From: an uncultured Rickettsiales bacterium
Lineage (GTDB): Bacteria > Pseudomonadota > Alphaproteobacteria > Rickettsiales > UBA1997
Assembly (NCBI GenBank): GCA_944391025.1
Contig: CALXSC010000110.1
Location: 2,406 to 66,405, forward strand
Direction: 5' to 3'
Length of the DNA: 64,000 nt
A program made the position numbers and the translations under genes. How positions within the stretch are numbered: the stretch's first letter is position 1; the number at the start of each line of letters is the position of its first letter. Below the pieces are notes generated by a model. The model did not search any database and was not told the origin of the DNA. It saw nothing but the letters and a program-made list of their open reading frames with translations. Below are positions 1,579 through 63,878 of this stretch, piece by piece.

Positions 1579-2028
1579 ATGTGTTTAGCAGTTTATAAAA
1601 ATTTTAAAATAGAGATCGTTAAAGAACCTATTTTTGTTTATAAAATTGGATGTCCTTTATTAGATTGTTTTACTTCTCCTCATTATGATTATAAATACAT
1701 ACAAGGGGAACTAAGTGTTTGCCCGAATCCATTTGAAATAATGAGTAGAAAATATAAAGAAGGCTTTGTAGTTTACGATCAAGCTGAGTTTGATAATCTT
1801 ATTAATGAGTTTAAGTTTGGTGATCCATTAATTTTATGGATGAAAGAAACATTTGATTTAATTGTTACAGGATTTCACTTTATGTATTCTAACAGAAGAA
1901 TTACATCTACGGATTATAAGCTTGGCATATTTGCGATTCCAGAAGGCGCAAGAGTAGTTACAGGTATTGATAGTGATTTAGGTGTTACTGATAAAATAAT
2001 TTATTTAGGAAATAGTAAAGATTTATAA
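1579..2028 (+). CDS. hypothetical protein
   Basis: Track ORF, 149 aa; co-oriented, stop overlaps next ATG (TAATG). Confidence 0.7.
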   Translation: MCLAVYKNFKIEIVKEPIFVYKIGCPLLDCFTSPHYDYKYIQGELSVCPNPFEIMSRKYKEGFVVYDQAEFDNLINEFKFGDPLILWMKETFDLIVTGFHFMYSNRRITSTDYKLGIFAIPEGARVVTGIDSDLGVTDKIIYLGNSKDL

Positions 2029-2402
2029 TGGATATTATTCAATTAAAATATGAGCTTTCTAAAAAGAGTCCAGCAGAAATTTAGATTCTATTACAAATGC
2101 TAATGATTGAAAAGAAACTATCTTTTGTTTCACTATCAAATGCATATGTTGAGTATCTCGAACAAATAAAAGAAGATAACGAAAACAAATTAATAGAAGC
2201 TGAAACTTGTGTGATGGAAAGTTTCATTTATAATAGGAAAGATAAAGATGCCGCTTCCCATAACTCAGCTTTACGTGCTCTCTATCTATTAAATAAATCT
2301 AATAGATTTAATGTACAAGCAGAAAATAAAAAATATAATTATAATGAAGAGGAGGCAAGAAAATTATCTTGGTATGAACGTAATAAAAATAGTAATTCAT
2401 AG
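2028..2402 (+). CDS. hypothetical protein; start at 2028 requires reading TAG 2082-2084 as sense
   Basis: ATG 2028 overlaps upstream TAA; in frame with track ORF 2097-2402 through one TAG; ends in TAG 2400-2402, in frame with 2412-3269. Confidence 0.5.
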
Positions 2403-2411
2403 GATATTCAC

Positions 2412-3269
2412 ATGGAACGTAAGATTGGAGAAATATTTGAGTATGATGATGAGTGGTATCAGTGTATAAGAAGTACTACTTGTGCAGGTTGTTCTCTTTT
2501 TGATACAATATGTATGGGTGATGATAAAGATAAAGTGTTTGGCGAATGTAGCTACGCAGAAAGAAATGATGGTAAATCTATTAGCTTCAAGAAACTTGAA
2601 AAGATTAGAGAACCTTTTGAAATAAATGGTTATACGTATCAAGAATATGCGGTATATACATATCCTGCATTAATAAATGGAGATGCTAAAATACCTACAG
2701 TTAATGGATTTGCAGTAATAATCAAAGAAAACAAAGGAGATATGAAAATAAAGAGAGTTATAATGAACCATAATGACAGAGATTATCTTTTGGATACATT
2801 GGAAGCTATTCTACATGATACTCATTGCCAAGAATACAAAGATGAGATTTGTGAAGCATTTTCAAAGTATATAATTCCAGAAGCTACTGCTGATTTGAAA
2901 CCCTTTGATTTAGATGCCGCTAAAGCTGGTAAGCCAGTTTGTACTCGTGACGGAAGAAAGGCGAGGATTATTTGCTTTGACAGGGGTGACAATAAACCTA
3001 TTGTTGCACTTATAACTACTAATAATAGAGAATATCTAACAGAATATTATTGTAATGGAAGAATATCACATTATAATTCAGAAAATAACGACCTTATGAT
3101 GCGCTCCGAAAATAAAGAGGGATGGGTGAATGTGTATTGCGATTGTGATGGAGCAAACATAACTAAGGATGATAACATTTATTCTTCAAAGGACGCTGCA
3201 ATCGCATCTGCGCAAATAATTGATAGAGATAACTATGTTGCAACGGCTAAGATAAACTGGGAGGAATAA
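2412..3269 (+). CDS. hypothetical protein, WEE-tail paralog family
   Basis: Track ORF 285 aa; KPFDLDAAKAGKPVCTRDGRKARIICFD and NKEGWVNVY blocks shared with 59960-60493, including a 23-nt identical DNA stretch. Confidence 0.75.
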   Translation: MERKIGEIFEYDDEWYQCIRSTTCAGCSLFDTICMGDDKDKVFGECSYAERNDGKSISFKKLEKIREPFEINGYTYQEYAVYTYPALINGDAKIPTVNGFAVIIKENKGDMKIKRVIMNHNDRDYLLDTLEAILHDTHCQEYKDEICEAFSKYIIPEATADLKPFDLDAAKAGKPVCTRDGRKARIICFDRGDNKPIVALITTNNREYLTEYYCNGRISHYNSENNDLMMRSENKEGWVNVYCDCDGANITKDDNIYSSKDAAIASAQIIDRDNYVATAKINWEE

Positions 3270-3270
3270 T

Positions 3271-3459
3271 ATGGCATGGGTAGCAGTAGATAAGAATGGG
3301 AATGAAGTTATTTTTGAATTTGAGCTATACAGATGGAATGATTTCTTTTGGGTGGAAGATACTGGTGATTACATAGACCTTCCAAAAGGCTCAATTAAGA
3401 AACTTATAGGTAGAGACTTAGATTGGAATAATGAACCTGTAGAATTAAAGGTGGAATAA
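3271..3459 (+). CDS. hypothetical small protein (tandem paralog of 3463-3699)
   Basis: Track ORF; MxW(V/I)A..KNG... N-terminus and ...EP.EL tail resemble the next ORF. Confidence 0.65.
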   Translation: MAWVAVDKNGNEVIFEFELYRWNDFFWVEDTGDYIDLPKGSIKKLIGRDLDWNNEPVELKVE

Positions 3460-3462
3460 ATT

Positions 3463-3699
3463 ATGTGGATAGCGAGAAATGAAAACGGTATGCTTCATGC
3501 CTTTGATTCAAAACCTATTAAAAGCAGAAGACTCAAAGGATATTGGACTTATGATACAGGACCTAATTACTGGCTTGATGATAGATATGCAATAGAGCTT
3601 CCTAGAAAATGGTTTCCAGAAGTCAAATGGGAAGATGAAGAACCGCGAGAACTTGTTTTAAAACCGATAAAGAAGAATAATTATGAGAATAGAACCTAA
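3463..3699 (+). CDS. hypothetical small protein
   Basis: Track ORF; tightly packed; similar to 3271-3459. Confidence 0.65.
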   Translation: MWIARNENGMLHAFDSKPIKSRRLKGYWTYDTGPNYWLDDRYAIELPRKWFPEVKWEDEEPRELVLKPIKKNNYENRT

Positions 3700-4342
3700 A
3701 ATTGGAGAAATAATAACTGTTGAAAATGTTAAATATATAACAAAATTAACAATTAATCCGGAACCACAATGTAATCAATGTCATCTTCTTAATAAACCTT
3801 GTAGGGACATTAGTTGTATACCATTTTTTAGAAAAGATGGTCAAGCAGTAATATTTAAAGAAGTAAAAGAAATGGAAGTAAAGATTCAAATACCTGATAA
3901 TTGTGAACTCATCAAGGATGGGAACACATATATAGTTAAAGAGAAGAAACAAGAACCTCCAAAAAGTTGGGAGGAGTTCTGTGAGAGATATCCTACTCAG
4001 AAAAGGGAGGCTTATATAGATTTAGTGGGCCAAGTTAGAGAAATTGCCTATAATTGTACACCATCAAGACCAAGAAACGGTAAAAATTTCTGTATTTCAA
4101 AAGAAGAAGCAGAAGCATTTCTTGCCTTAATGCAATTAAGACAGTTAAGGAAAGCTTGGATTGGAGATTGGGAACGTGATTATGAACATTTTGTATATTG
4201 TATTATTAATTGTGAAGATTCACTTGTTCGTTCATCCCATCTGTATGCTAATAGTCCTCTTTCATTTCCTACTGAAGAAATGGCTAAAGAATTTCATGAA
4301 TGTTTTAAAGATTTGTGTGAAACTGCTAAAAGATTTTTATAA
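3683..4342 (+). CDS. hypothetical protein
   Basis: Track ORF 219 aa; overlaps neighbours by a few nt. Confidence 0.7.
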   Translation: MRIEPKIGEIITVENVKYITKLTINPEPQCNQCHLLNKPCRDISCIPFFRKDGQAVIFKEVKEMEVKIQIPDNCELIKDGNTYIVKEKKQEPPKSWEEFCERYPTQKREAYIDLVGQVREIAYNCTPSRPRNGKNFCISKEEAEAFLALMQLRQLRKAWIGDWERDYEHFVYCIINCEDSLVRSSHLYANSPLSFPTEEMAKEFHECFKDLCETAKRFL

Positions 4343-4344
4343 TT

Positions 4345-4653
4345 ATGTTTGCACTTATAGTAATTACACTTATTTTATTTTCTTTATTCCTCGTAGTTCT
4401 TGATATTTATTTAGATATTTATTTAAAAACATCTAAAAAACCTAGAGTATTATTCATAATCGGTGGGATGATTATGGTTGCTTTGTTGTTTTCGATTTTA
4501 ATAGAGTACACTACTACTCCTACAATAGAAGATTATGTACATGGTAATACTACGACAGAAATAAAATATGAAATGCATGACGGTGTTTTAATTAAAGCAG
4601 ACACTACTTACATCTATAAAACAAAGGAATGCAAAGAATTTTATGGAAACTAA
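4345..4653 (+). CDS. hypothetical membrane protein
   Basis: Track ORF; two N-terminal hydrophobic helices. Confidence 0.6.
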   Translation: MFALIVITLILFSLFLVVLDIYLDIYLKTSKKPRVLFIIGGMIMVALLFSILIEYTTTPTIEDYVHGNTTTEIKYEMHDGVLIKADTTYIYKTKECKEFYGN

Positions 4654-4900
4654 AACTGAAATTATAGAATTAAACAATCTTAATTTTTACTTTTCAATCA
4701 ACTGTGACGTGATGAAAAGTGAATACTGGTATTAATAACCTTTACTAAGCTCGTGCGAATAATAGTAACACGTGGTTAAACTTAGTTCCCTTACGGGCTG
4801 TGGGAAACGCTTATCATTTCCTACAGGACATTGCCAGTGGAATAGTAACTGGAACAATTATCCAACATTAAAATAAATCCTTAGTTGGAGAGGTAATCTT

Positions 4901-5209
4901 ATGATTGGTCGTAATTCAATTTGCGTTAAATTTACAATTAAAAAGAAACCTGTAATTATACAGGCAAACAAAAATTATGCAATTTGTGATATTATATTCA
5001 GTCATGATGCAATAGAACCTAAAAAACCGATTGAACTTACAAAAGAATCCATGGCTAAATATAGGAAAGAAAAACTTTCCTATGATCTTGCTGTAAGAGA
5101 AATTAAAAATCAGCGTCAAGCGTTTCTTAATAAGTTTCAAGGTAAACAATTAAATGATGCATATATAGTTGAACGTATTAATTATTACTTCAATGAGACA
5201 GCGATTTAA
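4901..5209 (+). CDS. hypothetical protein
   Basis: Track ORF 102 aa; rare purine-rich GGAGAGG 8 nt upstream. Confidence 0.55.
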   Translation: MIGRNSICVKFTIKKKPVIIQANKNYAICDIIFSHDAIEPKKPIELTKESMAKYRKEKLSYDLAVREIKNQRQAFLNKFQGKQLNDAYIVERINYYFNETAI

Positions 5210-5594
5210 TGCGATTAATTGTATTATGCAATTTAATCAGATTAGAATTGAAATGTCTAATCAATCTGCGACTGAACAGGATTTTAAATACTTCTTTAAA
5301 ATCTGTGGTATTCCTTGTAACGCCTTGTTCTGGAGTAAATTTGAAAAATCAGGTTTAATTCAGAAAATTGATAATAATTCTTATATATGGACAAATCCGA
5401 AAAGACCTATTCATTATCAAGAATTAGATAATATTTATCAAGAGTATAAAAACACCTTTGATAGATATTATCATACTTATCAAGAAAAGAAAATAAAAAA
5501 GAATACACAGGTACTTCAAGATGCTATAAACTTATTAAAAGAAAATGGGTTTATAATTCTTAAGCAAGAAGGTAATATGTTCGAACAACTATAA
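5193..5594 (+). CDS. hypothetical protein (start ambiguous: ATG 5193, 5226 or 5253)
   Basis: Track ORF 5169-5594 uses a non-ATG start; three in-frame ATGs follow. Confidence 0.6.
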   Translation: MRQRFNAINCIMQFNQIRIEMSNQSATEQDFKYFFKICGIPCNALFWSKFEKSGLIQKIDNNSYIWTNPKRPIHYQELDNIYQEYKNTFDRYYHTYQEKKIKKNTQVLQDAINLLKENGFIILKQEGNMFEQL

Positions 5595-5600
5595 ATAATC

Positions 5601-5680
5601 AATAATTTGTGATTTTCAAGTAATTAACTATTTTTAATATAGTTACTATTTGAAATATCACAAATTATTATTATTTTTGT
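5601..5680 (+). terminator. long imperfect hairpin plus T-run, likely intrinsic terminator
   Basis: AATAATTTGTGAT(5601-5613) pairs with ATCACAAATTATT(5657-5669); further inner pairing; followed by TTATTATTTTTG. Confidence 0.6.
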
Positions 5681-5881
5681 AAATATCCGTTAATTAAACA
5701 TGTTTTCTCGGTTGGACTGTACCAGAACAAGTCGGATTCTATACGTCGCTGTAGTATAGCCATTCTTTAAAGTTCTAGGGAGAGAAACTGAGTTGTTTGG
5801 TTATTTGTTGACTTTAAATAGAAATAACCTATAACTAGCTAATCTATAAGGAATGAGAATAACCCTGATTAGTATAGTTTT

Positions 5882-5954
5882 CGGGCTATAGTTTAATTGG
5901 TAAAACGTCTGATGCTTAATCAGAATATGTTGGTTCGAATCCAACAAAGTCCGC
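5882..5954 (+). tRNA. atypical tRNA, positional anticodon CUU (Lys) with G at position 33
   Basis: Canonical T arm GTTGG-TTCGAAT-CCAAC and D arm GTTT-AATTGGTA-AAAC; anticodon stem TCTGA/TCAGA with loop TGCTTAA; acceptor has one mismatch and a 1-nt register problem. Confidence 0.5.
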
Positions 5955-5975
5955 TAATTTTTAAAAAGTAATATT

Positions 5976-6188
5976 ATGAATACAATTTTTCTTATTTATT
6001 TAATCGGAGTTATATGTAGTGTTATTATGACAATTCTTACAGGAATTGAAAAGAGAGATAATAAGATAACTTTTTGGACTGTATTAGCTGGAATAAGTGC
6101 TAGTCTATTATCATGGGGTAGTGTTGCTGTATATGTAGTCCTAATATATCTTGAATATTTAAGTAGCAAATGGACTAAATTAAACTAA
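5976..6188 (+). CDS. hypothetical membrane protein
   Basis: Track ORF 70 aa, two hydrophobic helices. Confidence 0.6.
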   Translation: MNTIFLIYLIGVICSVIMTILTGIEKRDNKITFWTVLAGISASLLSWGSVAVYVVLIYLEYLSSKWTKLN

Positions 6189-6189
6189 C

Positions 6190-6582
6190 ATGGAAGAAGA
6201 AATAATAGATCCAGAAATTAAAGAAAAAATACTTCAAGCCGAATTAAAGTCTCCTGAAGAAAGGACATATGAAGAACGTTATTATGTTTGGTTAAAAGAA
6301 AGATACCAATATCAGGATTATAACGAAGGCGAAGAAATAGAAATATATGATGGCGACAAACTTTATTATAATAAATTACGTGATGGATTTGGTAAAGAAT
6401 TTCCTGAATGGATAAGAGAATGTGGTAAATATTTTGGTAGAAAAGTAAGACAATGTATAACAGGAGAAATCAAAACTCTTATAGGAATTTCTTATACATA
6501 TATGGATTACTATTATATTCTTGAAGATAATGGAGAGAAATCTTATGAAACATGTCTTTCTAGTATTGAAATCTTAGATTGA
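6190..6582 (+). CDS. hypothetical protein
   Basis: Track ORF 130 aa; starts 2 nt after previous stop. Confidence 0.7.
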   Translation: MEEEIIDPEIKEKILQAELKSPEERTYEERYYVWLKERYQYQDYNEGEEIEIYDGDKLYYNKLRDGFGKEFPEWIRECGKYFGRKVRQCITGEIKTLIGISYTYMDYYYILEDNGEKSYETCLSSIEILD

Positions 6583-6625
6583 GTTTTTAGATTAAGATAA
6601 AAAAAAATTGAATTATTAATTAGGA

Positions 6626-6921
6626 GCCGGGATGTTGAAATTGGTAGACAAGACAGACTTAGAAAAATAATCAATATTAGGTAATGAGTGCCTAAAAGGA
6701 AACTTTTAGAGTAGAAGCCAGCTAATTCGGGGAAGGTATCAGCCGTATAAATGATAATAATCCCGAGCTAAATAGAAAAAACTTCTTAAATGTGTACAGA
6801 CTATACACTGGCTACCTAAATCACTACTAAGTGCTATGGTAAAGAGATAGTCGAGAGAGTAGATTACTCTCGAAAATTTGTTGCCTTAACAGGCGTGTGG
6901 GTTCGAGTCCCACTTCCGGTA
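6626..6921 (+). tRNA. tRNA-Leu (anticodon UAA) split by a group I intron; exons 6626-6660 and 6873-6921
   Basis: Acceptor GCCGGGA/TTCCGGT; T arm GTGGG-TTCGAGT-CCCAC; long variable arm; anticodon stem ACAGA/TTTGT. Joined loop is CTT|AAAA, so the insertion lies between U34 and A35. Confidence 0.8.
6661..6872 (+). mobile_element. group I intron (IC3-like), ORF-less, 212 nt
   Basis: 5' exon ends in U and intron ends in G (..CTCG). Core strings GTGTACAGACTATACACTGG, CTACCTAAA, GTGCTATGGTAAAGAGATAGTCG resemble my recollection of cyanobacterial tRNA-Leu and Azoarcus intron cores. Confidence 0.75.
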
Positions 6922-6960
6922 CTAAAACAAATGATTTATTAATATTTTATATTAAACATT

Positions 6961-7392
6961 ATGACAAAATTAATACCTAGAAGTTATGCAAAAGGAGGCT
7001 AGCTTAATAGCCTATAGTTATTTACAGATTTCATAAGTAAATTAGAAGGATGGAAAACTAAATGTAAAAATCTTCATTGGGCTGCTCCTAAAAACAATAT
7101 TCATGTAAGGCTTGATGAGTTTTTAGAAGTTCTTTCAGATTATCAAGATACTTTAGCAGAAGGAATAATGGGATTACTAGGAGTACATCTTGGTCCTAAC
7201 GATATATCAGGAGATCCAGGTAATATAGATAATGCTACTGATTTTATACATCAAGTAAAAACAGAAACATTATCTTTTTATAATAGTATTCCATCAGATA
7301 TACAATATTGTGGATTAAAATCAGAGACTGAAACATTTATTTATAATATTAATAAATACACCTATCTCTTCTCAATTTGCTCTAATGAATAA
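6961..7392 (+). CDS. Dps/ferritin-like protein; needs two in-frame TAGs (7000, 7015) read as sense
   Basis: ATG 6961 is in frame with track ORF 7168-7392. Recoded N-half carries Dps-like K..HW..(N)..H..LDEF...D.LAE spacing (NLHWAAPKNNIHVRLDEFLEVLSDYQDTLAEGI). Confidence 0.65.
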
Positions 7393-7408
7393 TTATCAAA
7401 AGATTTAA

Positions 7409-7606
7409 ATGTATATATTAAGTATCAGTCCTAAAGCTTTTATTAAGCAGGGACAAGAAAATGAAATTATTATAGTATCCGATCCAAATAAAGCTACTAT
7501 AATAGAAACAATAGGTGACGCTATGAAAATTGCTTCTATAATCAATACTGATTTTGAAGCGGATGTTGTCAAAGTTCTATCAACCTCAGTTTCTAGTAAT
7601 CTATAA
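7409..7606 (+). CDS. hypothetical protein
   Basis: Track ORF 65 aa; preferred over the overlapping antisense ORF because of orientation. Confidence 0.5.
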   Translation: MYILSISPKAFIKQGQENEIIIVSDPNKATIIETIGDAMKIASIINTDFEADVVKVLSTSVSSNL

Positions 7607-7674
7607 ACTGGTGACTTTAGATCTTCGTTCAACAAGAACTGAGATAGGTTGGCTAACCTAAGTAATAGTCAAAA

Positions 7675-7730
7675 AGGACTAACTTATATAGTTATGAGGT
7701 TGAATTATAATTAAGTTAGTCCTATTTTTA
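7675..7730 (+). terminator. intrinsic terminator-like hairpin
   Basis: 12-bp stem AGGACTAACTTA/TAAGTTAGTCCT, 25-nt loop, then ATTTTTA. Confidence 0.6.
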
Positions 7731-7741
7731 ATTTATATGTT

Positions 7742-7999
7742 ATGGGAGAAATTATTTTAAGTTGTTTAATTGCAAATATTATTACACTAATATTTGTATC
7801 TGTAATATTTATTCTTATAGGATATATATTATATAAAAAATATATAGATAACATTAAAGATATAATATCTGATACAACTCAGAATGTAAATAATATTATT
7901 TCAGAAATTACTTCAACTACTAGTGAAGTTAAAAATTCTATGAATAAAATAAAAGAATTCTTAGACAAATGGGAAAGAATTATAAACTTTGGAATGTAG
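7742..7999 (+). CDS. hypothetical membrane protein (ends in TAG)
   Basis: Track ORF 85 aa; N-terminal TM helix. Confidence 0.6.
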   Translation: MGEIILSCLIANIITLIFVSVIFILIGYILYKKYIDNIKDIISDTTQNVNNIISEITSTTSEVKNSMNKIKEFLDKWERIINFGM

Positions 8000-8148
8000 G
8001 TGATCGAGTTAAAATAATTCGTAGTCATAGTGATGATTTAGGTAAAGAAGGAATTATTGTAGAAGTACGTCCTTCATTCTGTAAAATTGAGATTGAAGGC
8101 TATTCTAAGCCAAAAAATCATTGTTATGGTCAATTTGAGCGAATTTAA
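7969..8148 (+). CDS. small KOW/SH3-like protein (59 aa, below track cutoff)
   Basis: ATG 7969 to TAA 8146; MGKNYKLWNVGDRVKIIRSHSDDLGKEGIIVEVRPSFCKIEIEG... has a G-D-x-V-x-I...G..G.I pattern. Confidence 0.4.
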   Translation: MGKNYKLWNVGDRVKIIRSHSDDLGKEGIIVEVRPSFCKIEIEGYSKPKNHCYGQFERI

Positions 8149-8576
8149 AGCCCTTCGAGGTTAGTGGAAGCCAGCCCTTGCGATTTTATAAAACACTTAT
8201 CTGGTATACTAGGTTGGGTATCCTAGTTGTGGAAAGTTTTAGGATTTTTATCACCAATCAAAAAGAAAAAATCATTTTTAGATTTGTAGATTACTTATAT
8301 TATTAACTTAAACTTTTTGTATTATGTTAGAATGGATTAAAAAAGTTATCAAGTGGTACTTAGACCAACTTAAAGACACTAACGTTTTTGTCCCTACAGG
8401 CATGATACCTGTTTAGGAGTAATCAGATTATTAGATAGGACATTCTCAATACGGAGAATGCTCCTGATGTAGAGAGAAATAAAAGGAACACGTTCTACTA
8501 ACCTCCACGTGGTGTGTTCTGGATAAACAACTGATAAGTAGAGTAAAGAAATAAAATGTTTAATTAAAAAAAAACT

Positions 8577-8714
8577 ATGGCCAACAAAAAATTTATAATT
8601 GATGGAGAAAGAGTTATCTAGTAGTCTCCAGATGGTACTTTGACATATACAATAGATTGGTCTGGAGATATGTCAAAATTATTAGACTTTTTTAAAACAT
8701 TGCCTCTAATGTGA
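8577..8714 (+). CDS. small hypothetical ORF containing two consecutive in-frame TAG codons
   Basis: ATG 8577, TAG TAG at 8619-8624, TGA 8712-8714; otherwise open and hydrophilic. Confidence 0.35.
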
Positions 8715-8720
8715 TTAGTT

Positions 8721-9047
8721 ATGGAAATAGAATTAGATTATAATGAAGAACGTAAAATAGCTTCTTCTTTATCAGATGAAGAGTTAATGAATAAATATTG
8801 TGAGGGAGCTTTGTCTTTTGCAGAATATCATGAATTTTGTGATAGGATTGCAGAGAAAGATGCGGAAAAAGGCATAAGAGTGTCCTTTATGCCGTATGAA
8901 TTATATCTCGCAGAATATAAGGAATTGCTAAGTCAGCCTTATACATCCGTGACATGTGAAGGACCTATAATAAAACTCTCTGATGAACCAATTAAAACAG
9001 AACCTCCCAAAAAGAAAAATTTTTGGAATAAATTGTTTGATATATAA
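8721..9047 (+). CDS. hypothetical protein
   Basis: Track ORF 108 aa. Confidence 0.65.
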   Translation: MEIELDYNEERKIASSLSDEELMNKYCEGALSFAEYHEFCDRIAEKDAEKGIRVSFMPYELYLAEYKELLSQPYTSVTCEGPIIKLSDEPIKTEPPKKKNFWNKLFDI

Positions 9048-9048
9048 A

Positions 9049-9073
9049 AGAGAGTTACCTAAGATAACTCTCT
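9049..9073. terminator. hairpin between convergent genes
   Basis: 8-9 bp stem GAGAGTTA/TAACTCTC, loop CCTAAGA; T-rich on + strand, TTTT after it on - strand. Confidence 0.55.
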
Positions 9074-9089
9074 CTTGTAATACATCTAA

Positions 9090-9278
9090 TTACCTAGATT
9101 TCATCGTCTTTGAGACGAAGTGACAGTAGATTTCATACAGAATAGAGATGCAACCTACTGGAATACTTACTATTGGAAATATCATTCCTATTATAGTAAG
9201 TACAACACTGATTATAAGCTAGTGATGCTATTCAATCAGTGCATATAAATTCTTCATAAGTTTAAAGAATTTATTCAT
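9090..9278 (-). CDS. small membrane protein with two in-frame TAGs; the only minus-strand gene inside the plus-strand block
   Basis: Minus-strand GAAAGGAGGTGTTT-ATG; MNKFFKLMKNLYALIE-TAG-HH-TAG-LIISVVLTIIGMIFPIVSIPVGCISILYEIYCHFVSKTMKSR; frame checked, 62 codons. Confidence 0.5.
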
Positions 9279-10030
9279 AAACACCTCCTTTCCTCTTTAA
9301 AATTAGACATGCAATGTTATAGTACTGGTCATTGCTTCTACCATTTTACAAAGAAACTAATTTTAAATGAAAGGAGGTGTTTACTTGGAAATTTTTAAAA
9401 GAGAAACAGGAAAGAAGCTCTACACTCCTTTCCTGAAGAGTAAACTCTTTTTAGAATAAAGCTATGATAGAGACTGCTAATGACAGTACTTCTATCACGA
9501 CTATCTACCAAAGAGATAGTCTTTCTAATTGAGTTTCCTGCTTTTTAGGAAACTCAATCTAAAACTTGAATGAAAATTTTATTTTCATAGGTTTTGAGAT
9601 TAAAGTTTCAGGCTAAAAGTCCTCCAGCCATACTCGGACTAAATTTCCTGAAACTGGAGTATCCTAGCAATAGGATACTTTATTTTGAATAATTATTTAA
9701 ACAATATAGTATCTTTGCAGCCCAAGAGAGGAGGATAGTTGGTATTCCTCCAATTGGAAAAGCTAAAATATCCATTGAATGACACAAGACCAACTATCTT
9801 CAATTATTGCTTGAAGAATTGTCATTATAATGAAACAAATAACTTTCCAAACCGTCTTTTTGATTTTAGCCTTCCAAATAGCTAGATGGTGAAAAATTCG
9901 CTATTGGAGGCTTTTAAATATCATAGGCAAAATTTTTTAAAATTACTATAAGCACTATTGCTTATAGAGGCTGCAAAGATACAAATTCAGATTAAGGTAG
10001 CATTTATGTGCTACTTTAATCTTTGTTTTT
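9279..10030. other. hairpin-dense non-coding island
   Basis: No ORF over 25 codons on either strand even with TAG as sense; at least 12 perfect 7-15 bp stems found by eye (details in findings). Confidence 0.5.
9709..9982. repeat. element bounded by 14-bp perfect inverted repeat GTATCTTTGCAGCC / GGCTGCAAAGATAC
   Basis: Arms 9709-9722 and 9969-9982; same arms (one transition) bound 11602-11696. Confidence 0.5.
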
Positions 10031-10031
10031 T
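9989..10031 (+). terminator. strong intrinsic terminator
   Basis: 14-bp stem AGATTAAGGTAGCA/TGCTACTTTAATCT (one G-U), then TTGTTTTTT. Confidence 0.7.
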
Positions 10032-10044
10032 AGAAATAATATAT

Positions 10045-10054
10045 TATATTTGTA
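10045..10054 (+). promoter_or_regulatory. Bacteroidota-type -7 box TATATTTGTA, with TTTG 19 nt upstream
   Basis: Matches TAnnTTTG; TTTG at 10022-10025; ATG at 10057 is only 5 nt after the box G. Confidence 0.5.
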
Positions 10055-10056
10055 CA

Positions 10057-10674
10057 ATGAATGATATTGAACAACAATCAGACAATACTAGAGTAGCAAT
10101 GCCTCTATAGAGAATGCCAGTAATTCCTTATGATTATATGGCGGAAGCACTAAGAATTAGGCAATCTACTCCTGAGTTTAAATAGGATAACAGAACTGAA
10201 AGTTAGAAGAAACATGATAATATGGTATCTGATTATCTTATTTATGAAGATTAGAAATAGAAGAATTTACAAGAAGCTGGTAAAGCAGTAGATGCTATGT
10301 TAACTATGGTTTCTCCATCCACTTATGTTGGAGCAGCTACAAGAAATAATGATAAATCCTATTGGGAGAACGTAGCTTCTGGAGAGGGATTTGGTAACTT
10401 CTGGGGAAATTTCCTTTTTGATAGTGCAGTAGCAGGAATAGCAGGACTTGCTGCGAAAGGAGCAGCAAAAGGAGCTAGTAAATAGGTTACTAAACAGATA
10501 GATGAAGAACTTATAGATGATATACAAAATAGAGTTACTGAATATTTATCTTATCCTGGGATTTCCAAAAATGTGAAAATTCATATTACGAATGAATCAG
10601 CTTAGGAAGCTAAAAATTTATTAGGTAATGATGCAGAATATGTTAATTTTGGAGAGAAAATGCCCTTGGATTAA
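10057..10674 (+). CDS. hypothetical protein with 7 in-frame TAGs (includes track ORF 10297-10485)
   Basis: 205 codons from ATG 10057 to TAA 10672 with no TAA or TGA; frame arithmetic checked. Confidence 0.65.
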
Positions 10675-10718
10675 GAGTTCCTACAAAGTTAAGTTAGAGA
10701 ACTAAGGATTACTATAAA

Positions 10719-11339
10719 ATGCTGGAAGAAAGATTTAAAGCATTTGGAATAAAATTGCCAGATGATTTTGATATATCAAATGTGCCAGCATATAAAATAT
10801 ATGCACCTGAATTTGCAGATGATGCTGGAAATATACGGATACATAATTATAAGGATGAGGTAAAAGGAATCCAAGATTTTTATGGATGGAAAGGATTTCA
10901 TACAGATAACCCTAACGAAATTTATATCAGAGAACATATTCAAAATAAAACTCCTAAAAATTTTAATCGTAATAATACAGAGTTACATGAAGCATTACAT
11001 GTTACCGACAAATACATTCCTGATGAAATTAAGAAAATATATAAAGAAATGTCTGGATTTTCAGATGATGTTGAATGGAATGAAAGAAGAAATACTAAAC
11101 ATCAAGTTGATTTAGTGATGAAAGAGAAGTATGGAAATAATTACTCTCGACATTTAAATCCAGATGTAAAAGAGGAATATAAATAGGAAATAGTAGATGA
11201 TTTCGTTAATGCAATGCACAATATGAATGGATATGGTGAAAGTTGGGTATATTCTAAAAAGAGTTGGGAAGATATGAGAAAAGTTCTTCCTTTACCAATA
11301 TTAACTTTACCATTATTACAGCAATAGAATTATAAATGA
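10719..11339 (+). CDS. HExxH-motif protein (putative Zn-metallopeptidase-like), 2 in-frame TAGs
   Basis: Track ORF 10719-11186 ends in TAG; frame stays open through TAG 11325 to TGA 11337; motif TELHEALHV. Confidence 0.6.
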
Positions 11340-11340
11340 T

Positions 11341-11583
11341 ATGATTGAAGTAAATGACAAACTAATGTCTCCTGATGAATATCGAGAATATACTCGTAAT
11401 ACAAATGGAATCGACATTTCTTGGTATTCTTATACTGAATATTTAGGAATACCTTCTGAACAAGTAGAAAAGGATAGACTTACTACAGATTATGATAAAC
11501 TTTGTTGGAAATACTATCAAGAAACATTAGATAGAATGAAGCAATGGGAAAGAGAGGAAGCTAAAGAAAAGTCTCTAGAATAA
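11341..11583 (+). CDS. hypothetical protein
   Basis: Track ORF 80 aa. Confidence 0.65.
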   Translation: MIEVNDKLMSPDEYREYTRNTNGIDISWYSYTEYLGIPSEQVEKDRLTTDYDKLCWKYYQETLDRMKQWEREEAKEKSLE

Positions 11584-11601
11584 ACTATTTAAATAACGTA
11601 C

Positions 11602-11696
11602 AGTATCTTTGTAGCCAACCTTAAACAATACCATTGAAGCTTTTCATTCTTTTTGTTTTACCATAACTATAAATTACCATAGGCTACAAAGATACT
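11602..11696. repeat. element bounded by 15-bp perfect inverted repeat AGTATCTTTGTAGCC / GGCTACAAAGATACT, followed by T-run
   Basis: Arms 11602-11616 and 11682-11696; 65-nt interior; could also act as a terminator. Confidence 0.5.
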
Positions 11697-11713
11697 TTTT
11701 TAATTACTTTGTT

Positions 11714-12400
11714 ATGAATTTACTTATAACCTCATTTAATATTAAAAATACTATTCCAGATTACGAAGGATATAGATCAAAAGATATTTATAAACTTATA
11801 GAATCTTATGATATTGTATGCTTACAGGAACTTACTCCGATTACAAATATTTTATTACGCCACTTTATGAGAAAAACTCATAAATTTTATGGATGTATGT
11901 TTGGTACTGGAGTATTTGTTAATAAGAAATTTAAAATTAAAAAGAAAAGAAAGATCAAATTATTTGATAATCTCGTAGAGGTTATTAAAGATGTTGATAA
12001 CTACAGGAAAGCTACATTTGTAGAAGTAGAAATAGATTCTAATACTTCTCTTAAAGTTTATTCTTGTCATTTTGGATTTAATACTGAATGGTATACAAAT
12101 TATAGTTCTTTACAAGATGCTATAAGAAATACTGATAAATCTAATTTATTGATATGTGGTGATTTTAATATTACTCCAGATAGTAATAATTATTCACTTC
12201 TTAAACATATTGATAATTTAAACTTAAATGATTTGAATGTACATAATCTTCCTACATTTCATGGTTTTAATGAAGATACAAAGGCATGGAAGATTATTGA
12301 TTATACTTTAACTAATGTAAATTATAAAAGAAGTATATTCTTTACGAATTATAGTGAAGTATCTGATCATCTTCGATTAGGTATAGATCTTTCATTATAA
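11714..12400 (+). CDS. endonuclease/exonuclease/phosphatase (EEP) family protein
   Basis: Track ORF; LITSFNI, CLQEL, ICGDFNITPD, IDYTL, SDH motifs in EEP order. Confidence 0.75.
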   Translation: MNLLITSFNIKNTIPDYEGYRSKDIYKLIESYDIVCLQELTPITNILLRHFMRKTHKFYGCMFGTGVFVNKKFKIKKKRKIKLFDNLVEVIKDVDNYRKATFVEVEIDSNTSLKVYSCHFGFNTEWYTNYSSLQDAIRNTDKSNLLICGDFNITPDSNNYSLLKHIDNLNLNDLNVHNLPTFHGFNEDTKAWKIIDYTLTNVNYKRSIFFTNYSEVSDHLRLGIDLSL

Positions 12401-12410
12401 TTTTAAGTAT

Positions 12411-12493
12411 TCCGCCTTCGCATAGAGGTTGATTGCACTAAATTTGTAATTTAGATCCTTAAGGACACGTCAGTTCGAATCTGACAGGCGGAT
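12411..12493 (+). tRNA. class II (long variable arm) tRNA with anticodon UGU; amino-acid identity unclear
   Basis: Perfect 7-bp acceptor TCCGCCT/AGGCGGA; T arm GTCAG-TTCGAAT-CTGAC; anticodon stem CTAAA/TTTAG with loop TTTGTAA; 14-nt variable arm ATCCTTAAGGACAC. Confidence 0.6.
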
Positions 12494-12722
12494 CAAAATA
12501 AAAATTAAAATATTATATAGACTGTGGGAAGGAATCCAGGTTCGAATCCTGTTTGGAAATAGACTACACAACATTGTTTGTCGATTTGGTGTATAGAAAG
12601 GTTAGCACATTCCATAGTTTATTTACTTAGGATGCTTGTTATTAACTTCCTTAACTTGTATATTATAGTGTTAGAAAAATAAAACAAATTGTAAAGAAGC
12701 TATTATAAAAAATTAAAATATT

Positions 12723-12926
12723 ATGGAAAGAAATTTAGTTATACAAGTACCAGGTGTTTTGAGTTTATTAGGAATTGCATTTATAATATTAAAATTATGT
12801 AATGTCATTACATGGTCGTGGATAGCAGTATTAGCTCCTTTTTGGATACCTGTACTGATTGTATTTTGTGGTACAATATGTGCATTACTTATACTGCTAG
12901 TTTACTATATAATAAAATTAAAATAA
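12723..12926 (+). CDS. hypothetical membrane protein
   Basis: Track ORF 67 aa, two TM helices. Confidence 0.6.
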   Translation: MERNLVIQVPGVLSLLGIAFIILKLCNVITWSWIAVLAPFWIPVLIVFCGTICALLILLVYYIIKLK

Positions 12927-12957
12927 TGCTGTGAAGCATGAATAACTTTTTGGCTTA

Positions 12958-12988
12958 GTAAGGTACTTTATAGTACCTTACATTTTTT
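12958..12988 (+). terminator. intrinsic terminator
   Basis: 9-bp stem GTAAGGTAC/GTACCTTAC, loop TTTATA, then ATTTTTT. Confidence 0.6.
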
Positions 12989-13076
12989 GGAGAATTGCTA
13001 GAATGGTAATAGGCCTGACTTGAAATCAGAGGCAACGTAATCATCCGTTGAATAGGTTCGATTCCTATATTCTCCT
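12989..13076 (+). tRNA. tRNA-Ser (anticodon UGA)
   Basis: Acceptor GGAGAAT/ATTCTCC; loop CTTGAAA; 5-bp variable-arm stem CAACG/CGTTG; T arm ATAGG-TTCGATT-CCTAT. Confidence 0.8.
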
Positions 13077-13081
13077 CTAAT

Positions 13082-13111
13082 AAGAGTATCAGTATTCTGG
13101 TACTCTTTTTT
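13082..13111 (+). terminator. terminator-like hairpin after tRNA-Ser
   Basis: Stem AAGAGTA/TACTCTT followed by TTTTTT. Confidence 0.55.
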
Positions 13112-13141
13112 ATATGTATAATGTTTAAAATTAATTAATTT

Positions 13142-14176: not shown

Positions 14177-14188
14177 AAAGTAAATATA

Positions 14189-14222
14189 GTAACACTCCTA
14201 TATAAGGGAGTGTTACTTTTTT
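14189..14222 (+). terminator. strong intrinsic terminator
   Basis: 10-bp perfect stem GTAACACTCC/GGAGTGTTAC, then TTTTTT. Confidence 0.75.
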
Positions 14223-61834: not shown

Positions 61835-61835
61835 T

Positions 61836-62565: not shown

Positions 62566-62590
62566 TGGAAATTAATGATTTATATAGTAT

Positions 62591-63130
62591 ATGATGTTTA
62601 ATTTTACAGGAAATTATTAGACTTTAGAAGAACTAAAAGAGCATGTAACTTATAACTATAGTACTGGGGAATTTTATTGGAAAACAGCTAAAAGTCATAG
62701 AAAATTAAATAAACCAATAGGATGTAAAAGTGACAGATATTATGTAGCAACTTTTAATCAAATAAAATATCTTCTACATAAATTAGCTTGGTATTTTTAC
62801 TACGGTGAGTACCCAGATTTTCAGATAGACCATATCAATCAAGATACACATGATAATAGAATAACAAATCTAAGAAAGACGACAGATAAGGATAATAGTA
62901 GAAATAAACCTAAACGAAGAGATAATAAAACAGGAGTTACTGGAGTTTATTTTGAAAGTTATACTAAAAAGTATCGTGCAAATATAATTGATAATGATGG
63001 AAAATGTATTAGAAAACGATTTACTACATTGGATGAAGCAAAATCCTGGCGCGATTCAAAAGCTATTGAATTTGGGTATTATGAGAACCACGGACGAGAG
63101 TTGTCAAGACTACCATATAGGAAAAAGTAA
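62591..63130 (+). CDS. free-standing HNH (HNH_3-type) plus AP2-domain homing endonuclease; one in-frame TAG (62618)
   Basis: 179 codons checked; YLLHKLAWYFYYGEYP...IDHINQDTHDNRITNLR; AP2-like TGVTGVYFESYTKKYRANI...FTTLDEAKSWRDSKAIEFG. Confidence 0.75.
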
Positions 63131-63338
63131 TTATTCAGAACATATAATCCAGCCGTGGCATTTGTGGCAAGAATATAACTTAGATCCTTGGGATGCTGAT
63201 ATAATTAAAAGAGTACTTAGAACTAAAGAGGAGCAAGGTAAAACTCTAAAAGAATCTAGAATACAAGATTATGAAAAGATCATTCATATATGTCAAGAAA
63301 AGATAAGACAATTATCTGTACAAACTTTACCTTTTTAA
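63081..63338 (+). CDS. DUF3310-like protein; start uncertain, 5' end overlapped by the HNH gene
   Basis: Track ORF 62988-63338; YSEHIIQPWHLWQEYNLDPWDADIIKRVLR resembles DUF3310 from memory. Confidence 0.55.
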   Translation: MRTTDESCQDYHIGKSNYSEHIIQPWHLWQEYNLDPWDADIIKRVLRTKEEQGKTLKESRIQDYEKIIHICQEKIRQLSVQTLPF

Positions 63339-63339
63339 T

Positions 63340-63600
63340 ATGATTAAATTTGCATTAACTGATATAGAGGATGGAGTTAAAGGATTAGAGATAGGAATAC
63401 AGAATATTCTCGATTATGTTTATGAAAATAATTCTTATATACTATCTTATCCTATTAATTTTGATATAGTTAAAGGAATCTTAAAAGTATTAGAACTTTC
63501 TACGTATAGTGATTATACTGATTTTATTGTAGTACAATATAAAGATGCAAATATTAAAATTAAGTTTGAAGAAAAGCAAGTTATGTTTACAAAACTATAA
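63340..63600 (+). CDS. hypothetical protein (last + strand gene)
   Basis: Track ORF 86 aa. Confidence 0.6.
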   Translation: MIKFALTDIEDGVKGLEIGIQNILDYVYENNSYILSYPINFDIVKGILKVLELSTYSDYTDFIVVQYKDANIKIKFEEKQVMFTKL

Positions 63601-63605
63601 TATAA

Positions 63606-63655
63606 AAGCCGATAGATTATGGAATAATTCCTAGTCTATCGGCTTATTTTTTTTT
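63606..63655 (+). terminator. intrinsic terminator
   Basis: 11-bp stem AAGCCGATAGA/TCTATCGGCTT followed by T10. Confidence 0.75.
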
Positions 63656-63697
63656 AGCCCTTAGGATGTAGCAATACGTTCTAAGGGCTATTTTTTT
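63656..63697 (+). terminator. second tandem terminator
   Basis: 9-bp stem AGCCCTTAG/CTAAGGGCT followed by T7. Confidence 0.7.
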
Positions 63698-63878
63698 AAA
63701 TTATGTAATAAAAATCAGTTCTATTTAATATATCTAAATCCTTAGCTTTACAAGTAAAATCTTTATTCTAAAAGGATAATTCATTATTAGCATAATCCCA
63801 TTTAAAATATCCTTTAAAATTAGGTAATAATCCTATTTTACCTTTCCTGGCTATATTAGATAATTCATTATATGTCAT
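63696..63878 (-). CDS. hypothetical protein on the minus strand with one in-frame TAG
   Basis: Minus-strand ATG 63878; MTYNELSNIARKGKIGLLPNFKGYFKWDYANNELSF-TAG-NKDFTCKAKDLDILNRTDFYYII; TAA at 63698-63696; frame checked. Confidence 0.5.

What the first reader, a model, noticed from the sequence alone, without database searches (positions are those of the whole stretch)
2028..63878. TAG is a sense codon in a scattered subset of genes while the core replication genes avoid it
ORFs that make sense only if TAG is read through (TAG count in brackets):
- 2028-2402 (1, and ends in TAG)
- 6961-7392, Dps-like (2)
- 8324-8422 (1)
- 8577-8714 (2 adjacent)
- complement 9090-9278 (2)
- 10057-10674 (7)
- 10719-11339 (2)
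- 16376 relic (2)
- 18793-19386, HNH (1)
- 33232-33774 (1)
- 44184-45527 (13)
- 62591-63130, HNH-AP2 (1)
- complement 63696-63878 (1)

None of these frames contains TAA or TGA. In the Dps-like gene the ferroxidase-motif half can only be reached through the two TAGs.

By contrast, RNR, PolA, ligase, both helicases, ThyX, sigma and the amidoligase genes have no in-frame TAG. Nearly all genes stop with TAA or TGA.

TAG-to-Gln recoding is published for uncultivated gut phages, including crAss-like ones, and is usually described as confined to late genes. Here the recoded genes are interspersed within the replication arm and enriched among selfish nucleases. No tRNA with a CUA anticodon is present among the six tRNA-like genes in this window.
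Basis: partly seen in the sequence, partly recalled or inferred. Interest (0 to 1): 0.8.

Follow-up and report, generated by a model that had tools for sequence, protein, structure and literature searches.

The report
Amber-gated genes in phage replication arm
This is the replication half of a large gut phage that reads the stop codon TAG as glutamine; a few genes inside the otherwise standard-code half, including every homing-nuclease-like gene found, also need that read-through, which extends an already published phenomenon rather than revealing a new one.

Summary
Nine of the thirteen listed frames are solid TAG-containing genes: long, free of TAA/TGA, coding-like on both sides of each TAG, and with domains or homologues that span the TAGs. 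One is a decayed nuclease relic. Three tiny ORFs are unconvincing.

TAG means Gln. One TAG aligns with a near-invariant Gln. Between this phage and a 94-96% relative, 15 of 23 changes at TAG sites are TAG<->CAA/CAG.

The window is the "dual-coded" early arm of a roughly 170-kb (by relatives), crAss-like-looking phage. In its opposite-strand late arm, TAG supplies about half of all Gln codons. In the early arm, 100 genes have no internal TAG and 7-8 end in TAG.

All four homing-endonuclease-like genes found carry TAG. One nuclease gene is TAG-rich, among TAG-free neighbours, in two relatives about 51% identical. No CUA tRNA lies in the window. Published data place it at the 5' end of the late strand, which I could not reach.

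Recoded late genes, dual-coded early blocks and a recoded homing endonuclease inside an early gene are all already published. This is a new member of a known kind.

The parts
2028..2402 (+). 124-codon gene with a sense TAG at codon 19 and a TAG at its natural C-terminus. The frame continues into the next gene at 2412-3269.
   Evidence: A 68%-identical homologue in L012 starts at the same Met. It has Glu opposite TAG19 and ends 3 residues after TAG125. The best 120 listed homologues of 2412-3269 all cover only that part, so they are not fused.
6961..7392 (+). DUF5856/Dps-like gene with TAG at codons 14 and 19.
   Evidence: Pfam DUF5856 matches residues 39-114 and PHROG 858 matches 21-115. The first table-11 start is Met70. 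Codon score is 0.45.
10057..10674 (+). Gene of unknown function with 7 TAG, which is 54% of its Gln-type codons, a late-arm-like density.
   Evidence: No homologues in IMG/VR or GenBank phages.
10719..11339 (+). Gene of unknown function with an HEALH motif and TAG at codons 156 and 203.
   Evidence: The 46 codons after the first TAG score 0.41, which is coding-like. No homologues in GenBank phages. The AF2 model was unusable.
16376..16570 (+). Decayed homing-endonuclease relic: a NUMOD4-like N-terminus with 2 TAG, then a frameshifted NUMOD1-like helix-turn-helix.
   Evidence: Three-frame translation.
18793..19386 (+). HNH/endonuclease VII-like gene with TAG at codon 12.
   Evidence: PHROG 3322/1035/3118 endonuclease hits, and phrog_374 matches from residue 12. 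There is no start codon between the TAG and 18973.
33232..33774 (+). NUMOD1-like HTH plus PD-(D/E)XK/RusA-like nuclease gene with TAG at codon 3.
   Evidence: Pfam PDDEXK_15 (weak) and PHROG 244 at residues 70-179. No table-11 ORF of 70 aa or more exists in this frame. The NUMOD1-like assignment comes from reading the sequence.
44184..45527 (+). Zinc-ribbon repeat (DUF723/DUF4379/CapR) plus Vsr-like nuclease gene with 13 TAG (57% of Gln-type codons). It overlaps the dUTPase start.
   Evidence: Pfam domains span the TAGs. 1,489 homologues were found, including full-length ones. TAG383 aligns with Q in 40 of 46. Orthologues in L016 and L017 carry 8 and 13 TAG at the same position.
44128..44159 (+). 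Bacteroidetes-type promoter-like site (TTTG-N-TAnnTTTG) in front of the 44184 gene.
   Evidence: A similar site precedes the L016 orthologue. This is a consensus match only.
62591..63130 (+). HNH_3/AP2-type homing endonuclease with TAG at codon 10.
   Evidence: Pfam HNH_3 and PHROG 99 at residues 8-174. The 84%-identical copy in L007 sits at a different locus and keeps the TAG and the 9 upstream codons.
63696..63878 (-). Last gene of the minus-strand late arm (60 aa, 1 TAG).
   Evidence: It is called as a gene in L001 and L007 and overlaps the stop of the 1605-aa gene. Codon score is 0.42. L007 has TCG at the TAG site.
8324..8714 (+). Two tiny ORFs (8324-8422 and 8577-8714) claimed as recoded; the evidence is weak.
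   Evidence: Their lengths are within chance expectation. 8324 ends in TAG with TAA one codon later.
9090..9278 (-). 62-aa ORF claimed as recoded; not supported.
   Evidence: Codon score -0.05.
7742..7999 (+). Example of an early-arm gene that ends in TAG. The others end at 21876, 24745, 38578, 43149, 57935 and 60493 (TAGTAG).
   Evidence: Extensions to the next TAA/TGA are 3-14 codons, except at 38578, which runs in frame into 38582-38962.
798..20320 (+). Span holding the six tRNA-like genes, none with a CUA anticodon: Arg-UCU 798-870, Lys-CUU 5883-5954, Leu-UAA 6626-6922 (group I intron), Thr-UGU 12411-12494, Ser-UGA 12989-13077, and an odd Leu-like tRNA with CUG 20234-20320.

Best explanation
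The window is the early (replication) arm, plus the last late gene, of a roughly 170-kb (by relatives) phage with a crAss-like layout and Bacteroidetes-type promoters. The phage switches its infected cell to reading UAG as glutamine.

Shown here:
- TAG is decoded as Gln.
- TAG provides about half of the Gln codons in the opposite-strand late arm.
- The early arm is 'dual-coded': 100 genes have no internal TAG, and 7-8 genes use TAG as their stop.
- Eight early-arm genes cannot yield their full-length product unless TAG is read through.

Inferred: these eight genes are translated to full length only once an amber-suppressor tRNA-Gln(CUA) has accumulated. That tRNA is expected at the 5' end of the late strand, outside the window. 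If so, their TAG codons work as a translational timer that is independent of where the gene sits or when it is transcribed.

The gated set comprises every homing-endonuclease-like nuclease found, usually with a single TAG in the first 3-19 codons. It also includes two genes with late-arm TAG density (10057-10674 and the 44184-45527 nuclease) and a Dps-like gene.

Genes needed before the switch are kept TAG-free by selection. Genes not needed early are free to use TAG, or benefit from doing so.
For: - TAG = Gln. Q makes up 20% of residues at the 13 TAG columns of 44184 against a 3.5% background. TAG383 aligns with a Gln present in 40 of 46 homologues, including NCBI and JGI standard-code proteins.
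- In L001 (same phage, 99.9% identical overlap) versus L007 (94-96% aa identity), 49 TAG sites are conserved, 15 show TAG<->CAA/CAG, and 8 show other changes.
- Late arm. The giant ORFs carry 36, 7 and 22 in-frame TAG and no internal TAA/TGA. In relatives, TAG roughly equals CAA+CAG.
- Domains and homologues span the TAGs, and segments between TAGs are coding-like.
- Gene-specific recoding is conserved. Orthologues of 44184 in two relatives (51% identical, same place upstream of dUTPase, neighbours 40-56% identical) have 8 and 13 TAG. Their 3-5 neighbouring genes have none.
- The TAG at codon 10 of the HNH gene is kept in a copy at another locus.
- All 4 homing-endonuclease-like genes carry TAG (p=1.3e-5). 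In the low-count genes, 6 of 8 TAGs lie in the first 15% of the gene (p=2.4e-4).
- An A at the +4 position is enriched after sense TAG (39% vs 21%, p=0.009). From my own knowledge, this is the context known to favour amber suppression.
- Literature: late-gene recoding and suppressors in crAss-like phages (PMC7886860); the timing model and a recoded intron endonuclease in an early gene; dual-coded early blocks and Sup-CTA at the 5' end of the code-15 strand; proteomic proof of code 15 (PMC9523058 abstract).
Against: - No CUA-anticodon tRNA, RF2 or GlnRS was found in the window, in the 9.6 kb to its right, in the 1.6 kb to its left, or in about 100 kb of relatives' DNA. The rest of this genome could not be read.
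- Expression timing is entirely inferred. Synonymous codon usage does not separate early from late genes, so it gives no independent support.
- Intron-encoded LAGLIDADG genes in the late arm of relatives have 0 TAG in 7-10 Gln codons. 'Selfish nuclease means TAG' is therefore not a general rule.
- Gene 2028-2402 needs read-through at codon 19 but ends naturally at another TAG. This fits poorly with a clean all-or-none switch.
Confidence: 0.75

Rival explanations
1. Neutral tolerance rather than regulation. Once a suppressor exists, CAG/CAA-to-TAG changes drift to fixation in any gene whose product is dispensable before the switch. The TAGs have no timing function of their own. Decoding is the same as in the best explanation; only the adaptive claim differs.
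For: TAG positions turn over freely between orthologues, as a synonymous codon would. The two TAG-rich genes have the same TAG share (0.54-0.57) as late genes. Selfish and accessory genes are the ones expected to be dispensable early.
Against: TAGs in the low-count genes are concentrated in the first 15% of the gene (p=2.4e-4). The TAG at codon 10 of the HNH gene is conserved in an 84%-identical copy at another locus. Drift alone does not predict either. However, N-termini are also less constrained.
Confidence: 0.35
2. Recent horizontal import. The TAG-bearing genes are mobile elements that arrived recently from recoded regions or from other code-15 phages, and their TAGs simply reflect that origin.
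For: The HNH gene 62591 sits at different loci in this phage and in its 94% relative, with homology starting at the ATG. A decayed endonuclease relic lies at 16376. Homing endonucleases differ between close Zeta crAss-like genomes (PMC12386605).
Against: The most heavily recoded gene (44184) is syntenic with dUTPase and diverges at the same rate as its neighbours in two distant relatives. The 2028 gene and the Dps-like gene are not mobile-element types. All these genes are intact.
Confidence: 0.15
3. For genes with a single N-terminal TAG, translation starts downstream of the TAG at a non-canonical start codon. The TAG then lies in the 5' leader and is never decoded.
For: In 18793, 33232 and 62591 only 2-11 codons precede the TAG. 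Bacteroidetes lack strong Shine-Dalgarno signals, so start sites cannot be verified from sequence.
Against: No ATG/GTG/TTG follows the TAG for 48 to more than 100 codons. The pre-TAG codons of the HNH gene and of the 2028 gene are conserved as protein in homologues. PHROG 99 matches from residue 8 of 62591, upstream of the TAG.
Confidence: 0.08
4. The TAG-containing frames are pseudogenes, or TAG is decoded as something other than Gln, for example through near-cognate reading by the odd CUG-anticodon tRNA at 20234-20320.
For: One frame (16376) really is a relic. From my own knowledge, a CUG anticodon can pair with UAG through a first-position G:U wobble.
Against: There are no TAA/TGA stops or frameshifts in up to 447 codons. 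The same holds for orthologues. Gln dominates the exchanges at TAG sites. Late ORFs with 57-64 TAG need near-complete decoding, which near-cognate reading cannot give. The odd tRNA has two mismatches in its anticodon stem.
Confidence: 0.04

Closest known systems
TAG-to-Gln (code 15) recoded gut phages with a dual-coded early block. Sources: crAss-like phages in Yutin 2021 (PMC7886860), Borges et al. (bioRxiv 10.1101/2021.08.26.457843), Mgcod (bioRxiv 10.1101/2022.06.29.495998) and Peters 2022 (PMC9523058).
   Same: In-frame TAG is concentrated in the late, opposite-strand arm. Early replication genes are compatible with both codes. TAG aligns with Gln. The code boundary coincides with the strand switch at about 63.65 kb. 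The lineage carries group I introns, LAGLIDADG genes and giant late ORFs.
   Different: Individual TAG-dependent genes are scattered inside the early block. One of them has been kept TAG-rich among TAG-free neighbours down to about 51% identity. No suppressor has been found so far. The lineage has no close relative in GenBank phages or IMG/VR.
TGA-recoded group I intron homing endonuclease inserted in an early gene of Agate phages (Borges et al.).
   Same: A selfish nuclease located among early genes carries the recoded stop codon. This was interpreted as delaying endonuclease production until late in infection.
   Different: Here the codon is TAG rather than TGA. The nucleases are free-standing (HNH, PD-(D/E)XK, Vsr-like) rather than intron-encoded. 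Most carry a single TAG near the N-terminus. In this lineage the intron-encoded LAGLIDADG genes seen in relatives are TAG-free.
phAss-1 / Phassvirus and Zeta crAss-like phages (PMC10607447, PMC12386605).
   Same: Large gut phages with many tRNAs, homing endonucleases and amber or opal suppression. A forward block holds nucleic-acid metabolism and tRNA genes, including a GatB/YqeY-type 'tRNA amidotransferase'.
   Different: Those genomes encode detectable Sup-CTA tRNAs. There was no megablast match (window 36-56 kb) and only two weak tblastn matches to GenBank phages. This phage also encodes a full sigma-70.
Delayed translation of phage T4 homing endonucleases such as I-TevI
   Same: Nuclease synthesis is held back post-transcriptionally until late in infection.
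   Different: T4 does this through mRNA structure and late promoters, not through a stop codon and a suppressor tRNA.

Membership tests
Stop-codon-recoded (code 15, TAG=Gln) phage | Conserved genes contain in-frame TAG but no in-frame TAA/TGA, and coding signal continues across the TAG. | tested here: met
Stop-codon-recoded (code 15, TAG=Gln) phage | TAG aligns with glutamine in homologues that use the standard code. | tested here: met
   TAG383 aligns with Q in 40 of 46 homologues, including NCBI and JGI proteins. 15 of 23 changes at TAG sites are to CAA/CAG.
Stop-codon-recoded (code 15, TAG=Gln) phage | The phage encodes a suppressor tRNA with a CUA anticodon. | tested here: inconclusive
   None in the window or in the flanks and relatives' segments read. 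Roughly 95 kb of the genome, including the expected site, was unreachable. Published surveys detect suppressors in only about 40% of TAG-recoded genomes.
Stop-codon-recoded (code 15, TAG=Gln) phage | Recoding is concentrated in late genes on one strand, and the early block is compatible with both codes. | tested here: met
   Late arm: TAG/(TAG+CAA+CAG) is about 0.5. Early arm: 0 internal TAG in 100 genes.
Stop-codon-recoded (code 15, TAG=Gln) phage | The host uses the standard code. | not testable with these tools
   The host is unknown. Bacteroidetes-type promoter motifs are enriched in intergenic DNA (8 found, about 0.3 expected). This is only a hint.
Crassvirales / crAss-like phages | Signature TerL, portal and major capsid proteins. 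| not testable with these tools
   The structural region is not in the window or in any locus obtained.
Crassvirales / crAss-like phages | Giant virion RNA polymerase with a DxDxD motif, homologous to phi14:2 gp66. | tested here: inconclusive
   A giant late ORF contains GSDFDIDT. In relative L007 it is split exactly there by a LAGLIDADG intron. No sequence or profile match to PDB or PHROGs was found.
Homing endonuclease genes (the four nuclease genes) | A nuclease domain of a homing-endonuclease class (HNH, PD-(D/E)XK), usually with a NUMOD or AP2 DNA-binding module. | tested here: met
   The NUMOD1-like N-terminus of 33232 was read from the sequence.
Homing endonuclease genes (the four nuclease genes) | Sporadic presence or different insertion sites among close relatives. 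| tested here: inconclusive
   Met for HNH 62591, which sits at a different locus in L007 and is absent in L008. Not met for 44184, which is syntenic in L016 and L017. Not tested for 18793 and 33232.

The most novel reading that the evidence does not exclude
TAG may be deliberately ambiguous in this phage, and the suppressor may re-wire the early-arm proteome rather than merely unlock late genes. Three things would follow.
- Single TAGs in the first 3-19 codons would be selected on/off gates for nucleases.
- TAG-terminated early genes would gain C-terminal extensions after the switch.
- Two in-frame gene pairs would become fusion proteins after the switch: 2028-2402 with the YO09-family gene 2412-3269, and the SbcD-like 37022-38578 with 38582-38962.

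Gene 2028-2402 would then exist essentially only as a fusion product. The conserved YqeY/GatB-like protein (61824-62336) could be the accessory that lets host GlnRS charge the CUA suppressor.
Probability: 0.15. Interest if true: 0.6.

Novelty: new member of a known kind. Interest (0 to 1): 0.35.

Why it matters
The practical consequence is for annotation. Neither table 11 nor table 15 is correct for this arm. Table 11 truncates or loses eight genes, including all the nucleases. Table 15 wrongly extends or fuses 7-8 genes that end in TAG.

Biologically, the case adds lineage-level evidence that recoding status is a property of individual genes that is maintained over long divergence, not only of genome blocks. 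The evidence is a TAG-rich nuclease gene held among TAG-free neighbours down to about 51% identity.

It also extends the published idea that stop-codon recoding restrains selfish nucleases, from one TGA/intron case to free-standing TAG-bearing nucleases. Per-gene TAG content could therefore serve as a sequence-only readout of which genes a recoded phage can afford to express late.

Tried and rejected
- Crude six-frame ORF totals under different stop sets do not discriminate between codes. TGA-as-sense lengthens ORFs even more than TAG-as-sense.
- Megablast of 20 kb against GenBank phages found nothing.
- The best RNR hit, Bacteroides phage BS-TP1, is an unrelated myovirus.
- tblastn of the RNAP-like fragment found only two weak, unannotated records.
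- IMG/VR holds no relatives of the 10057 protein or of PolA.
- An exact 35-mer from the left flank is absent from JGI metagenomes.
- The two 50-200 kb contigs carrying right-end genes are never returned by the look-up of encoding contigs, so the rest of the genome and its suppressor could not be read.
- Relatives' segments L007-L014 hold no suppressor.
- P0079's 170-kb contig is an unrelated standard-code phage.
- AF2 of 10719-11183 gave pLDDT 39, so no fold search was run.
- An early-versus-late synonymous codon-usage classifier has no power.
- PDB and PHROG searches did not link the giant late protein to the crAss RNAP.
- The whole-window Rfam 'evalue' scan missed both introns; only short sub-windows found them.
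- Rfam found nothing in 7600-10100.
- I considered and rejected the tRNA-Leu intron boundaries hiding a CUA/UUA anticodon. Splicing after U and before the terminal G gives UAA.
- I considered and rejected the ATG at 53427 with TAG at codon 5 as a recoded PolA start. It lies inside the group I intron.

Full report
**What the window is.**
The window has 28.9% G+C and almost all genes lie on the plus strand. Pfam and PHROG scans identify these replication and nucleotide-metabolism genes:
- a GATase/amidoligase cluster (14952-18706)
- RNase H
- SF2 and DnaB helicases and a primase
- an SbcD-like exonuclease
- class II-type RNR (39977-42223)
- dUTPase and ATP-dependent ligase
- a complete sigma-70
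- PolA and ThyX
- two metallophosphatases and a YqeY/GatB-like protein

Contigs from other samples are 99.9-100% identical to the window and extend it by 1.6 kb on the left and 9.6 kb on the right. To the right, the coding strand flips at about 63.65 kb. Giant minus-strand ORFs follow: 1605 aa with a PD-(D/E)XK domain, 354 aa, and more than 1278 aa containing GSDFDIDT.

A relative with 94-96% aa identity (L007) and one with about 44% identity on a 169-kb contig (L008) share this layout. Bacteroidetes-type promoter motifs (TTTG-N17-23-TAnnTTTG) occur 8 times in intergenic DNA, against about 0.3 expected.

The architecture resembles large crAss-like phages as described by Yutin et al. (PMC7886860). 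Membership could not be shown, because no PDB or PHROG match to the crAss RNAP was found and the structural genes are out of reach.

**Checking the observation.**
Every listed frame translates as claimed. TAA+TGA occupy 9.7% of shifted-frame codons. TAA/TGA-free runs of 124-447 codons therefore have probabilities of 3e-6 to 1e-20, against roughly 12,000 intervals tested. Runs of 32-62 codons are expected by chance.

Codon-usage log-odds are coding-like for essentially every segment of 10 or more codons between TAGs in the large frames. Pfam DUF723, DUF4379 and CapR span TAGs in 44184-45527. DUF5856 and PHROG 858 begin upstream of the first possible table-11 start in 6961-7392. PHROG 99 matches 62591-63130 from residue 8, upstream of its TAG at codon 10.

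Three mini-ORFs are not convincing: 8324-8422, 8577-8714 and complement 9090-9278. The '16376 relic' is a frameshifted NUMOD4/NUMOD1 endonuclease remnant.

**Which amino acid TAG encodes.**
The 44184 protein has 1,489 homologues, including full-length ones, so homologues do not stop at the TAGs. In an alignment with 46 of similar length, Gln makes up 20% of residues at the 13 TAG columns, against a 3.5% background. TAG383 falls on a Gln present in 40 of 46, including NCBI and JGI proteins from standard-code annotation.

An independent test compares the late genes of this phage with L007. It shows 49 conserved TAGs, 15 TAG<->CAA/CAG exchanges and 8 other changes. The three orthologues of 44184 also swap TAG and CAA repeatedly. 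TAG therefore means Gln, as in published code-15 phages.

**How TAG is distributed.**
In late-arm genes, TAG roughly equals CAA+CAG. One 2242-codon ORF, for example, has 64 TAG against 62 CAA+CAG.

In the early arm, 100 genes (16,780 codons, 485 CAA/CAG) have no internal TAG. Seven of them end in TAG, one with TAGTAG. Extensions to the next TAA/TGA are 3-14 codons, except at 38578, where the frame runs into the next gene.

Eight early-arm genes hold 28 TAG against 44 CAA/CAG. Two of them, 10057-10674 and 44184-45527, have late-arm density (0.54-0.57). The others have one or two TAGs.

All four homing-endonuclease-like genes carry TAG (18793, 33232, 44184, 62591; Fisher p=1.3e-5). The caveat is that only about 60 of 108 genes, all of the larger ones, were scanned for domains. 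In the low-count genes, 6 of 8 TAGs lie in the first 15% of the gene (p=2.4e-4).

**Evolutionary behaviour.**
The 44184 nuclease is not a recent arrival. In two relatives it sits in the same overlapping arrangement upstream of dUTPase. It is 51% identical there, while the neighbours are 40-56% identical. It carries 8 and 13 TAGs, and all 3-5 neighbouring genes carry none. One of these relatives also has the promoter-like motif in front of it. Gene-specific recoding is thus maintained over deep divergence.

The HNH gene 62591 is mobile. In L007 it occupies a different site, with homology beginning at the ATG. It nevertheless keeps the nine pre-TAG codons and the TAG.

By contrast, the LAGLIDADG intron genes in the late arm of L007 and L008 have no TAG. 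The link between selfish nucleases and TAG is therefore not universal.

**An awkward case.**
A 68%-identical homologue of the 2028-2402 protein (L012) starts at the same Met. It has Glu opposite TAG19 and ends three residues beyond the position of the terminal TAG125. The best 120 listed homologues of the downstream in-frame gene (YO09 family) all lack the upstream part.

One mRNA therefore needs TAG read through at codon 19 but ends naturally at another TAG. With the near-complete suppression that 57-64-TAG ORFs require, the product would be a 413-aa fusion.

**The suppressor.**
Six tRNA-like genes are present and none has a CUA anticodon. None was found in the flanks or in about 100 kb of relatives' DNA.

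The Mgcod study places Sup-CTA at the 5' end of the code-15 strand. The window contains only the 3' end of that strand. The long contigs that would settle this were not retrievable. Published surveys also miss suppressors in most recoded genomes.

**Interpretation and novelty.**
The data fit the published temporal model (Ivanova, Yutin, Borges, Mgcod). In that model, early genes are readable under both codes and TAG-bearing genes become translatable once the suppressor is present.

What this window adds is a set of TAG-dependent genes embedded in the early block. One is conserved as such over long divergence, and the set is strongly associated with free-standing nucleases and with N-terminal TAG placement.

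Borges et al. already described a TGA-recoded intron endonuclease in an early gene and proposed the same rationale. A full-text search found no other report linking homing endonucleases and recoding. I therefore rate this a new member of a known kind, with modest interest.

Whether the TAGs are selected gates or merely tolerated remains open.

Noticed in passing
window 6626-6922: tRNA-Leu(UAA) is interrupted in its anticodon loop, at the classical U34|A35 site, by a 212-nt ORF-less group I intron. ARAGORN finds it with introns allowed, and Rfam RF00028 gives 55.1 bits at 6668-6871. The whole-window scans miss it.
   Followed up: yes
window 53232-53456: PolA is split inside motif A ('..IDFSG | QESFLLA..') by an ORF-less group I intron of about 230 nt (RF00028 49.9 bits, E=8e-12). 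The apparent ATG at 53427 with a TAG at codon 5 lies inside the intron. In relative L014, PolA carries a LAGLIDADG intron instead.
   Followed up: yes
window 20234-20320: An 87-nt type-II, Leu-like tRNA (A73, G37, U38) has anticodon CUG and two mismatches in the anticodon stem. It looks like tRNA-Leu(CAG) with an A35U change, or a pseudo-tRNA. If it is functional and charged by LeuRS, it would read CAG as Leu.
   Followed up: partly
window 61824-62336: A free-standing YqeY/GatB-like protein (Pfam 1.2e-18; PHROG 'tRNA amidotransferase') is conserved in relatives L008 and L014. It is absent from the corresponding interval of the 94% relative L007. It is a possible helper for charging a Gln suppressor. 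Lera, a TGA-recoding Zeta crAss-like phage, is also reported to carry an Asp/Glu-tRNA amidotransferase gene.
   Followed up: partly
L007 8600-10001, compared with L001 about 10400: In the 94% relative, the giant RNAP-like gene is cut exactly before the DFDID motif ('..LLQGS|DFDID') by an insert encoding a LAGLIDADG protein with no TAG. The phage of the window lacks this insert.
   Followed up: partly
window 37022-38962 and 2028-3269: Two TAG-terminated genes are followed, 1-3 codons later and in the same frame, by the next gene's ATG. Amber suppression would therefore produce 646-aa and 413-aa fusion proteins. Two of 8 is about what chance would give.
   Followed up: partly
window 9280-10056: About 780 nt contain no convincing ORF on either strand but hold two Bacteroidetes-type promoter-like sites (9684, 10022). 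The stretch lies directly upstream of the TAG-rich gene pair 10057-11339. Rfam finds nothing there.
   Followed up: partly
window intergenic sites at 5649, 9684, 10022, 26244, 32557, 35861, 44128: TTTG-N17-23-TAnnTTTG motifs, several sharing a longer 'TTTGG...TATATATTTG' form, suggest transcription by a Bacteroidota host RNA polymerase. The phage nevertheless also encodes a complete sigma-70 (50873-51721).
   Followed up: partly
window recoded genes and L001 late genes: The base after a sense TAG is A in 39% of 93 cases, against 21% after CAA/CAG in the same genes (Fisher p=0.009).
   Followed up: partly
window 12411-12494: tRNA-Thr(UGU) is 84 nt long and has an unusually long variable arm for a Thr tRNA (Rfam 52 bits).
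   Followed up: no
window 13142-18706: A cluster encodes class I and class II glutamine amidotransferases, a phiEco32-type COOH-NH2 ligase and an Amidoligase_2 protein. All are TAG-free. The cluster looks like a peptide- or metabolite-modification module of unknown target.
   Followed up: no
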